From NCBI RefSeq assembly GCF_009914755.1, contig NC_060937.1: a stretch of DNA of 64,000 nt. The stretch is one strand, 5' to 3'. The first letter of the stretch is position 1; the number at the start of each line of letters is the position of its first letter. Origin of the DNA: the human T2T-CHM13v2.0 reference genome, Homo sapiens. A model generated the notes under the pieces. The model searched no databases. It was given only the letters and a program-made list of their open reading frames with translations, and had not been told where the DNA came from. Below, one piece after another: positions 2,926-23,319 of this stretch. The position numbers and the translations under genes were made by a program.

Positions 2926-4930
2926 ATATTATTATTACAACTTGGTGAGAAGATGGGAACATTTTCTATTTCACAGTAGTAAAAAAAAAAAGAACTCTTT
3001 TGTATAAATTTCATGAAGATTTGTTGAGCACCTATTTTATGCCAGACACTGCATGTTTTGTGAATATAAATGAATAAGACATTCATTTCAAAATGCAGAC
3101 AAAAGTATGTATAATTTTGGACAGTGTGAATTTAGTGAAATCTTCAAGTACCTGGAGTTGTATATGTAAAAAAAAAAAAAGAAAATATTCATATCTAATT
3201 GTTAACTACAGAAAATATTATAAACCCTGATTTTATCCAAATGAGAAGACAGCCACTGAATGTAGATAGGACGGGCAAATAACAGGAAGCTCAGAGCCTA
3301 ATTCTCTCCCAACAAAATGTTTAAAGCTCTTATTTTAAGCCCATTTCTGGCACCTGGTGTCATTTACCCTTGAAAGGTTTTGCTTTTATTGCAGCTGGTT
3401 TACTCTGCGCTGTCTTTTGATGAATTTCATTATCTCATGTTGTCTCTTTAATTTCACATTGGTATATGAGCACAAAGTAGAGAACTATTGGAAAACAGTG
3501 AAAAGAACTCTGGTCTAAAAATCAGCCCCTTCCTGACTGTGGCAGCACCCTCTGACCTCTTTACTGGTCGAGTTACTTCATCCTTCTGGACCTTATTTTA
3601 CATCTTCTGTAAAACAAAAAGGTTGTATTAGGTGATCTAAAGTGTCGGAAGGTTATGCTTGCCTCTCTGCGCATCACTGTGCCCCTTCAGTAAGATAAGG
3701 AGACATGCCTGCCCTGAGCTGCTGCTAGGATTTCATGAGTCACCATGTCTGGAAGTGCCTGGGACATCACAAACCCTCTCTCTATCAGTGTTATTATTCA
3801 TGGAATGACGCTAAACCCACTTAGGAGTTCTCTTGGGTGATTATAGAAGTTTTTGTGCAATTTGGTTTTCAGAAATGACAGCACAGTAAAAGCAATGTGC
3901 TCTAGTGCCTAGGAAGCTCACCAAGATTGAATGAAGAGCAAATGTAATTCTATCAGTGCTGAATTTTTCTTAAGTTCTCTCCCACAGTAACAGCTAAATG
4001 CCATTTCTAAGGTATTTAGGAAGGCAGTGTCATGGAGTTTTCAGCATTCACATGAAAGTTTAGCTGACTTCTGGGGAAAATAAGCCAGCCTAAGAATGGA
4101 CTTTGCTCCATGCAGGGGAGATATTGCCACTTCTCTACTGCTCCGTGAGTTCATATTTAGGGGGGTTACATCGGGGGCTACTGGAGTGGAAAGGCTTTTA
4201 AGTATTGCATCTGATTCAGCCAGCAAGTTGAGTCACAAAGTGGATTACATAAAAGGAGGAGGAGGAGATTGTGGTGCATGTGTCCCAGAAAATATTTAAT
4301 TCAATTCAAAATCTCAACTCTGAAGATAAATACTGCCCTAATCTGCATCCCTGGGAACCATATATATACAACCCCCACCACATATAAGAAAGTAGCTCTA
4401 AAGAAAATAGTGCAAGCCTAAATATATTGGACAAGTGGGATTAGTTGCCACTGTATATAAAGGAGCAAATCCCATCAGGAAACTTCCAGAGTAATATCCC
4501 CGTTGACAGTTATTATTCCCTATGTTGCCACTGTAGTATATTCTGTTTGTTTCTCTGCTTTCTTTCCCTGTGAAGTGTATGGCCTTCCAAAGTATGTGCC
4601 ATTTGTTTTATCATTTTCTTTCTCTCTCTGGTTAGACCCACTCTTTTCATAACATCTTTTAAGATACAGAAAAGAGTGATGGCTTTTTCAACTCTGTATT
4701 CTCACTCATAACACTGTATCTGGCCCAAAGAATGAATCCTCGCATGTTGTGTGACCCATAGTGAAGAAAATATAGGAACAAGGATATGTCCCTTCCAGTT
4801 TTGGCCTCTCCTTGTTTATTTTAATCAAGGTGATATGATATGTGCTATGAAAACAAATACCCAATGCTACAAGGCTGACTAGAGACAACCAAACAGTAAG
4901 CTTTTCTTTTCAAATTAATTTATTGTAGAC

Positions 4931-19921: not shown

Positions 19922-20640
19922 TACTATGGTTTGAATGTTTATGTTCCCTCTAAAATTAATATTGAAACTTAACCCCAAGTACAATAGTACTAAAAGGTGG
20001 GGCATTTAGGAGGTAATTAGGCCATGAGGGTTCCACCCTCATGGATGAGATTATAAAGGTTGAGGGAATGAATTCAGTCCCTGTAGGTCTTCTGCTCTTC
20101 CACCAAGTGAGGACACAGTGTTCATTCCCTCTTACCTTTCAGACTCTTTTAGACGGAGTCTCGCACTGTCATCCAGGCTGGAGTGCAGTGGCACCATCTT
20201 GGCTCACTACAACAACCACCATCTCCTGGGTCAAGTGATTCTCCTGCCTCAGCCTCCCGAGTAACTGGGATTACAGCCATGCATCACCACACCTGGCTAA
20301 TTTTGTATTTTTAGTAGAGATGGGGTTTCACCATGTTGGCCAGGCTGGTCTCAAACTCCTGACCTCCAGTGATCCATGCACCTCAGCCTCCCAAAGTGCT
20401 AGGATTAAAGGCATGAGCCACCGCTCCTGGCCTACCCTTCAGACTCTTGTGCCATGTGAAGACAGAGCCTTCAAGGCATCATCTTGGAAGCAGAGACTGG
20501 GGCCCTCACCAGACACTGAACCTGCTGGTATTTTGAACTTGGACTACCCAGCCCTTAGAACTGTGAGAAATAAATTTCCATTGTTTATAAATTACCCTGT
20601 TGGCAGTATTTTGTTATATCAGCACAAATCGACCAAGAGA
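19922..20640 (+). mobile_element. MSTC/MSTD-type MaLR LTR, split by an Alu
   Basis: 'tactatggtttgaatgtt...ggccatgagggttccaccctcatggatgagatta...ccctcaccagacactgaacctgctgg...agaactgtgagaaataaattt'. Confidence 0.85.
20149..20432 (-). mobile_element. AluS (Sx-like), full length, almost no A tail
   Basis: Complete antisense dimer; TSD tacc(t/c)ttcagactctt at 20133-20148 and 20433-20448. Confidence 0.95.
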
Positions 20641-20810
20641 GGCAGGGATACAGTTTTGGGTAAAGATATATTTAGAAGAGCAAGAATTAGGAAAAGCAAA
20701 AACAGTGTTCAAAGGAGAGAAGGAAGAAACAAGAAAGCAACTGCAGAGCAGACAAGTGATAAGCGTTTCTCAAAAGTGGGAGCCAGAAGAGTAGTCAAAA
20801 AAGCAAGAAA

Positions 20811-22488
<1,678 letters not shown>

Positions 22489-22645
22489 TCATCGAACCAT
22501 TATTGCCTCACAGTAAAGCTGACTAATAAGAGAAAAGGTGTACAAATTTATTTAACCGTGTGCATGGGGAGAATCACAGAGTGATTACCCAATTTAAAAA
22601 ATAAATAAATAAAAATAAAAATAAAATAGCCTTTGCAACTAAAAA
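22489..22645 (+). other. L1 3'-transduced non-L1 sequence with further A tails
   Basis: Lies between the L1 A tail and the right TSD aaaaaagcaagaaa (22646-22659, identical to 20797-20810). Confidence 0.85.
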
Positions 22646-23319
22646 AAAAAAGCAAGAAAGATAAGAATTATGTGTATTCTTCAACCATAAAAAGGAAAGA
22701 ATTTCAAAAAGGAAGAGGTCAACAGTATAAAAATCCACGGCTCTCTAACCCCGTATTCTTTTCAATTCTTGGTGTAACAAGCCCAGCATCCTTCCTGCTA
22801 TTTTGCTGCTCTTTGCTTATTAGCCACGACCTTGAGAATCCTGGAACAATCTTTTGGATTTAATCTAATGGTGATGCAAGTTCGTTTCTTACCTTGATGG
22901 TGGAAATAGAATGTGAGTAGAGCTGGTGTGGGGTGCACTGGTGAGAAGTCCTGTCTCTTTTTCCCTTTGGGTTTTCATTTCCCCAGGTTTTATTTAAGTC
23001 ATTGCCAGGACCCTAGAAAGCAATTTAAATGTAATTATTTATTTGCAGTGATAGGTGTTTGCAATTAATAGTGGACAAAAGAATTGTGGTGAAAAAGACT
23101 TGCAGACGTAATGAGTAGCCTTCTTTCCCTGCTTCTTAACATATGCTATCTAGGCACATTGGTAACAAACACCTAAATTATATTGGAAGCTAATTTTCCA
23201 CATTTAAATGGCATAATATAATTTAGGGCCAATGTAGGCCTAAAAACGTTAGGCTTGACATTTTTCCAAGCAGCCTTGGTTTGTTTTACTGGACAATGAT
23301 TACTTGGAGTCAAGATCTG

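What the first reader, a model, noticed from the sequence alone, without database searches (positions are those of the whole stretch)
22489..22659. L1 3' transduction, apparently carried through two generations
Seen: the TSD aaaaaagcaagaaa (20797-20810) reappears only at 22646-22659, about 157 bp beyond the L1's own A tail, and the interrupted L2-like host seems to resume after it. The extra DNA is ~105 bp of non-L1 sequence, a second patterned A-rich tail (~22596-22626), 14 nt 'tagcctttgcaact' just downstream of an AATAAA, and a final A run. Established: read-through of the weak L1 polyA signal mobilises 3' flanking DNA. Inference: three A tracts record grandparent, parent and this insertion, so the tag identifies a source-element lineage. 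The tag faintly resembles MER4-group ERV sequence (low confidence).
Basis: partly seen in the sequence, partly recalled or inferred. Interest (0 to 1): 0.7.

Follow-up and report, generated by a model that had tools for sequence, protein, structure and literature searches.

The report
Two-step L1 transduction, source on chr12
An old jumping-gene (L1) copy inside an intron of GPC6 carries a 107-base piece that matches one spot on chromosome 12 plus a 14-base extra, likely souvenirs of two ancestral copies that are missing from this genome; this is a tidy example of a known process, not a new one.

Summary
The anatomy is real. An exact 14-nt target-site duplication (20797-20810, 22646-22659) encloses an L1PA2-type element followed by A tail / 107-nt tag / patterned A tail / 14-nt tag / A run. 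The 107-nt tag maps to one LTR copy at chr12:54,689,467-574, antisense, about 95% identical. Its first 28 nt match there at 26/28, against 13-16/28 in 28 other copies. That site holds no young L1, starts at an endonuclease-like A6 run and has no native A tract, so the first transduction is well supported (about 0.9) and its source L1 is absent from CHM13. A second round is likely (about 0.75) but not shown: no sibling carries the tag, and the 14-mer is too short to map. The best empty-site candidate, chr13:107,612,587, has a chance level of 0.03-0.35. Multigenerational transductions are described in print. New member of a known kind; low interest.

The parts
20797..20810 (+). Left target-site duplication, 14 nt; target reads as an L1 endonuclease-type site (TTTT/GA on the bottom strand; motif class recalled)
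   Evidence: (D8)
20811..21034 (-). Inverted L1 piece from the ORF1 coiled-coil region; 3-nt overlap with the TSD end, 2-nt overlap with the forward part
   Evidence: ORF1p match, E 6e-34; 96.5% to positions 1247-1473 of full-length copy L092
21033..22466 (+). Forward L1 part, from about ORF2p residue 867 through the 3' UTR; L1PA2-type; differs from all of three close copies at 23 of 1434 positions
22467..22488 (+). Tail 1, patterned A tract; its last six A's equal the A6 run at the chr12 junction
22489..22595 (+). Tag 1, 107 nt, copy of the antisense strand of one LTR at chr12:54,689,467-54,689,574; 5 substitutions and one 2-nt indel
22596..22626 (+). Tail 2, 31-nt patterned A tract with five AATAAA, absent from the chr12 source
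22627..22640 (+). Tag 2, 14 nt with only 3 A's; origin not uniquely mappable; best candidate chr13:107,612,591
22641..22645 (+). Remnant of tail 3 (5 A's; 11 counting the TSD's A run)
22646..22659 (+). Right target-site duplication
   Evidence: D8

Best explanation
This 1.86-kb L1 insertion carries 107 nt that match one LTR on chromosome 12 and a further 14-nt tag, likely picked up in two successive rounds of 3' transduction by source L1s that are absent from this genome. Step 1 (inferred): a full-length L1PA2-type element sat in the chr12 LTR, antisense to it, at the A6 run; transcription read 107 nt past its tail and was polyadenylated. Step 2 (inferred): that RNA inserted elsewhere as a full-length parent; the parent's transcript was cut 15 nt after an AATAAA in the new tail, taking 14 nt of its own flank, probably its target-site duplication. 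Step 3 (structure shown, mechanism inferred): this RNA was copied into the GPC6 intron by target-primed reverse transcription with twin priming, giving the 14-nt TSD and the 5' inversion. Grandparent and parent likely never fixed in the human line. Shown: TSD, tails, chr12 match, no young L1 at chr12, no sibling. Inferred: the existence and order of the two source elements.
For: Tag 1 best match chr12, E 1e-38, 94% over 110 nt; next best 89% over 79 nt. First 28 nt: 26/28 at chr12 against 13-16/28 in 28 of 28 other copies. The match starts in an A6 run (TTTT/CA on the other strand; such A>=6 runs number 7 in 3.1 kb) and ends where chr12 continues with non-A sequence. No L1 piece above 85% over more than 70 nt in 40 kb of chr12. 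Clock fits: 5 substitutions seen, 4.4-5.6 expected at 2-2.5% per lineage. chr12 has a 2-nt deletion that the tag and 26 of 28 other copies lack, so the tag is an old copy. The inverted ORF1 piece shows the template RNA reached at least 4.9 kb upstream, as a competent parent requires. Tag 2 has 11 non-A bases of 14 and no match within 2 mismatches elsewhere in the window or in the chr12 40 kb. In print: a multigenerational cascade with two tags (PMC13009371, section 10), transductions under 50 bp and source loci without a donor L1 (PMC4862182 passages).
Against: No sibling or parent carries the tag: DNA search with 40 of 116 candidates scored; a 20-mer at up to 2 mismatches gives only self, chr12 and one hit at control level; the tag/tail junction 21-mer gives self plus 7 two-mismatch hits, control 5. 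No poly(A) signal lies within 60 nt of the first cut; the nearest variants are 65 and 78 nt away, although 21% of transduction ends lacked one in PMC13009371. AATAAA in tail 2 is weak evidence, since any T in an A run creates it. The parent site is ambiguous: 26 other exact 14-mers exist and at least 4 of 16 one-mismatch 18-mer sites are also endonuclease-like. No ape genome or population data could be examined.
Confidence: 0.75

Rival explanations
1. One transduction only, from chr12. The 14-mer is filler inside the final poly(A) tail: a templated or untemplated insert made during integration, or a small later insertion.
For: No parent, no sibling and no unique source for the 14-mer. Templated inserts occur in L1 integration (22 cases, against 3,611 solo L1s, in bioRxiv 2024.08.27.596794 passages).
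Against: No local template within 2 mismatches. Short transductions are far commoner than templated inserts: 248 of 349 were under 100 bp. The 15-nt spacing from AATAAA is canonical.
Confidence: 0.13
2. Tag 1 joined the L1 by a template switch or RNA-level fusion between a polyadenylated antisense RNA from the chr12 LTR and an L1 RNA, using the A6 run; no L1 ever sat at chr12.
For: There is no L1 or scar at chr12. The A6 junction fits A-to-A microhomology equally well. L1 chimeras with other RNAs exist (PMC13174262 passages).
Against: The chimeras seen in those passages are mostly 5' fusions. The tag is antisense to the LTR's own direction, so no obvious transcript supplies it. Empty source sites are usual for germline transductions.
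Confidence: 0.07
3. Nested insertion: the L1 arrived with only the 14-nt tag, and a later 107-nt retrocopy from chr12 landed in its A tail, duplicating part of the tail.
For: Tail 1 and tail 2 share a 9-nt stretch that could be a second TSD. A tails are favoured endonuclease targets (recalled).
Against: Unrelated L1 tails share 5-15 nt with tail 2 (12 of 12), so the 9 nt carry no weight. A retrocopy hitting a 20-nt target is far less likely a priori than a second transduction (my estimate, about 1000-fold, from recalled rates). Tag and L1 body show matching divergence.
Confidence: 0.04

Closest known systems
Multigenerational L1 3' transduction cascade (PMC13009371, section 10 read)
   Same: One insertion holding the tag of the original source and a second tag from the intermediate element.
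   Different: There, source and intermediate were both observed and are L1HS. Here the element is an older L1PA2-type copy and neither source is present.
Proxy elements (PMC13009371) and source loci without donor L1 (PMC4862182 passages)
   Same: A truncated reference L1 holding the tag of a source that the reference lacks.
   Different: Their proxy sources are still polymorphic and active; this one is probably long lost from the human line (inferred from 1.6-2.5% divergence).
L1 transduction families (PMC6425141 passages; Szak 2003 and Macfarlane 2013 recalled, not held)
   Same: A shared 3' tag traces descent from a progenitor.
   Different: No second member was found in CHM13, so no family can be shown here.
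Twin-primed 5'-inverted L1 with internal deletion (bioRxiv 2024.08.27.596794 passages)
   Same: Inverted 5' piece, microhomology at both junctions, deletion at the inversion point (66% of inversions there).
   Different: The deletion is 3,276 nt against a reported median of 14.5 bp; a later genomic deletion cannot be excluded.

Membership tests
L1-mediated partnered 3' transduction | TSD encloses both the L1 and the extra DNA | tested here: met
L1-mediated partnered 3' transduction | Extra DNA lies between two A tails and maps to one other locus | tested here: met
   chr12:54,689,467-574
L1-mediated partnered 3' transduction | Second A tract is not templated by the source locus | tested here: met
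L1-mediated partnered 3' transduction | Full-length source L1 directly upstream of the tag, or its empty site | tested here: inconclusive
   No young L1 in 40 kb; junction falls on an endonuclease-like A6 run; other haplotypes and apes not available
L1-mediated partnered 3' transduction | Poly(A) signal 10-30 nt before the tag's end (usual, not obligatory: 274 of 349) | tested here: not met
   nearest variant hexamer 65 nt upstream of the first cut
Multigenerational (two-tag) transduction | Two non-A tags separated by A tracts inside one TSD pair | tested here: met
Multigenerational (two-tag) transduction | Second tag maps to a distinct intermediate locus | tested here: inconclusive
   one exact 19-nt candidate, chance 0.03-0.35 depending on the filter
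Multigenerational (two-tag) transduction | Intermediate or sibling element carrying tag 1 is observed | tested here: not met
   (one haploid genome only)
Twin-primed 5'-inverted L1 | Inverted 5' segment from upstream L1 sequence with junction microhomology | tested here: met
L1PA2 subfamily | Diagnostic 3' UTR bases and low divergence | tested here: inconclusive
   Shares the GAG triplet with 11 of 12 close copies but has A at 22382 with only 1 of 12; the link of these bases to subfamily names is recalled; no repeat library available
MER4-group ERV LTR (tag origin) | Match to a named repeat consensus | not testable with these tools
   LTR nature only: 80% twin 13 kb away in the same orientation; weak RVT_1 match between them, E 2e-5, below the curated cut-off, 1 of 15 frames scanned

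The most novel reading that the evidence does not exclude
The element records two ghost source L1s whose addresses can both be read: chr12:54,689,575 (grandparent) and chr13:107,612,587 (parent). One or both would still stand, full length, in an ape genome, giving a three-generation L1PA2-age pedigree split across species by lineage sorting, ending in a twin-primed copy with a 3.3-kb gap made at integration.
Probability: 0.12. Interest if true: 0.45.

Novelty: new member of a known kind. Interest (0 to 1): 0.25.

Why it matters
It shows that millions-of-years-old L1 copies still carry readable addresses of source elements missing from the genome, and it gives two exact coordinates to check in ape assemblies. 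Multiplied genome-wide, such tags could map lost active L1PA2 sources. As a single case it changes nothing: mapped transductions occur in 8.8% of polymorphic L1s (466 of 5,311) and 23% of somatic ones (349 of 1,531), so two in a row are expected in roughly 1-5% of insertions (my arithmetic). No effect on GPC6 is indicated; the window holds no GPC6 exon (hub annotation).

Tried and rejected
Sibling search by DNA and by two patterns: none. Tails of 16 close or tail-matching L1 copies show no tag (L079-L094); these are 16 of several thousand candidates. The chr2 copy L092 looked like a sibling over 368 nt but is 97.0% over the whole forward part and has no tag. Old L1 pieces near the chr12 site are 68-85% identical, apart from one 67-nt piece at 92.5%, and were rejected as source. 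Local template for the 14-mer: none. Tail decay as origin of the 14-mer: rejected, 11 non-A bases. Second-TSD test for nesting: uninformative. L2 host test: genome searches of both flanks returned only self, and local blast found only weak hits to the left flank. The reversed-pattern controls contain CpG and are too low to use. Literature: four full-text searches showed no description of this locus among the listed papers; one search listed 15 of 124, none containing GPC6. Supplements of PMC13174262 held none of five hg38 coordinate prefixes, which I estimated from recalled GPC6 coordinates. The supplement of PMC6191304 was listed but not read. Szak 2003, Macfarlane 2013 and Ostertag and Kazazian 2001 were not held, so a prior listing of this element there cannot be excluded.

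Full report
Observation. The structure is as described. An exact 14-nt repeat stands at 20797-20810 and 22646-22659 and occurs nowhere else in the window on either strand. Inside it lie an L1, a 22-nt patterned A tract, 107 nt of other DNA, a 31-nt patterned A tract, 14 nt with only three A's, and five more A's before the right repeat. The whole insertion is 1,863 nt including both repeats.

The L1. Its 5' 225 nt are inverted and encode part of the ORF1p coiled coil; the forward part begins at about ORF2p residue 867. Against a full-length copy (L092) the inverted piece maps to 1247-1473 and the forward part starts at 4750, a gap of 3,276 nt. There is a 3-nt overlap with the left TSD and a 2-nt overlap at the inner junction. 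This fits twin priming, where internal deletions are common but have a median of 14.5 bp (bioRxiv 2024.08.27.596794, passages); a later deletion is also possible. The forward part differs from all three close copies at 23 of 1,434 positions (counted) and, in its last 567 nt, from the commonest base of 12 close copies at 14 positions. It shares the GAG triplet of the 3' UTR with 11 of those 12; that this marks L1PA2 is recalled, not tested.

Source of tag 1. A genome search gave one outstanding hit, chr12:54,689,467-574 on the minus strand, 94% over 110 nt; other copies of the same repeat reach at most 90%, over shorter spans (40 of 116 candidates scored). The first 28 nt decide it: 26/28 at chr12, 13-16/28 in all 28 other copies examined. 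The differences are five substitutions and a 2-nt indel. At the indel 26 of 28 other copies side with the tag; at two substitutions most side with chr12. Both lineages have therefore drifted since copying, and five substitutions fit the 4.4-5.6 expected from the L1's own divergence. The chr12 sequence is an LTR: it has an 80% twin 13 kb away in the same orientation and a weak reverse-transcriptase match between the two (1 of 15 frames, below cut-off). The tag is antisense to it. The family name could not be tested.

State of the source. In the tag's direction chr12 reads non-L1 sequence, then six A's, then the tag, then non-A sequence. The six A's equal the last run of tail 1 and form an endonuclease-like site. 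No young L1 lies within 40 kb. This is the picture of an empty source site. Source loci without a donor L1 are usual for germline transductions in primates (PMC4862182, passages), and reference L1s tagged by absent sources are described as proxy elements (PMC13009371, section 10). One weakness: no poly(A) signal lies within 60 nt of the first cut. In PMC13009371, 274 of 349 ends had one, so a fifth did not (passages).

Tag 2 and the second round. The 14-mer occurs exactly at 27 places in the genome, self included. Of the 26 others, only chr13:107,612,591 has four A's in front, preceded by a pyrimidine, and an A behind, a 19-nt match with no L1 nearby. The chance of at least one such site among 26 is 0.35 for the A's alone, 0.15 with the pyrimidine, and 0.03 with the trailing A; the stricter filters were chosen after seeing the site. 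Sixteen further sites match the 18-mer with one mismatch; all were read, none has an L1 or A tail in the 60 nt upstream, and at least four are also endonuclease-like. A true site would stay exact only about half the time. I put the chr13 candidate at roughly even odds if two rounds occurred. The case for two rounds rests on the architecture, on the lack of a local template, on canonical spacing from AATAAA and on the high frequency of short transductions (248 of 349 under 100 bp).

Against. No sibling or parent was found by DNA search or by two patterns, nor among 16 L1 tails read. Only one haploid human genome was available; no ape sequence. The nested-insertion rival cannot be excluded by sequence, but its 9-nt candidate duplication is no longer than what unrelated tails give. 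The L2 host could not be confirmed.

Comparison and novelty. It works like, and by the tested features is, a partnered 3' transduction. As a two-tag event it meets the structural feature, is inconclusive on mapping the intermediate and fails to show a relative. A cascade with two tags is described in PMC13009371 and transduction families in PMC6425141 (passages). Four searches (listings only) showed no report of this locus, but three classic papers were not held and most supplements were not seen. Papers seen: PMC13009371 passages and section 10; passages only of PMC4862182, PMC6191304, PMC6425141, PMC12350158, PMC13174262 (plus one search of its six supplements) and bioRxiv 2024.08.27.596794.

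Verdict. Real, largely as read. First transduction about 0.9, second round about 0.75 overall. New member of a known kind; interest 0.25.

Noticed in passing
window 20811-21034 / 21033: 5' inversion with a 3,276-nt gap at the junction, over 200 times the reported median; made at integration or by a later deletion.
   Followed up: partly
G000:C13:93,048,484-93,049,760 (about 33 kb before the element, outside the window): A second close L1 copy whose two matched parts lie on opposite strands, so likely also 5'-inverted; its tail has no tag (L091).
   Followed up: partly
L059:1403-1637 (chr12:54,689,550-54,689,785): The source LTR has a 118-nt tandem duplication (88% identical) at its end, and about 50 nt next to the tag junction that other copies lack.
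   Followed up: partly
window 20130-20450: An antisense Alu with a near-identical 16-nt flanking repeat interrupts what looks like a MaLR-type LTR (name recalled), just left of the L1.
   Followed up: no
L081, L087, L089 tails: Several close L1 copies have short non-A interruptions between A runs, possibly very short transductions.
   Followed up: no
L043, L045, L052, L057: Four of the 26 chance 14-mer hits share similar flanks, so the 14-mer is part of an old repeat family there; none has an A run upstream.
   Followed up: no
L092 = G000:C2:53,583,200-53,589,700: A full-length L1 of the same type, used as the coordinate reference; no tag.
   Followed up: yes
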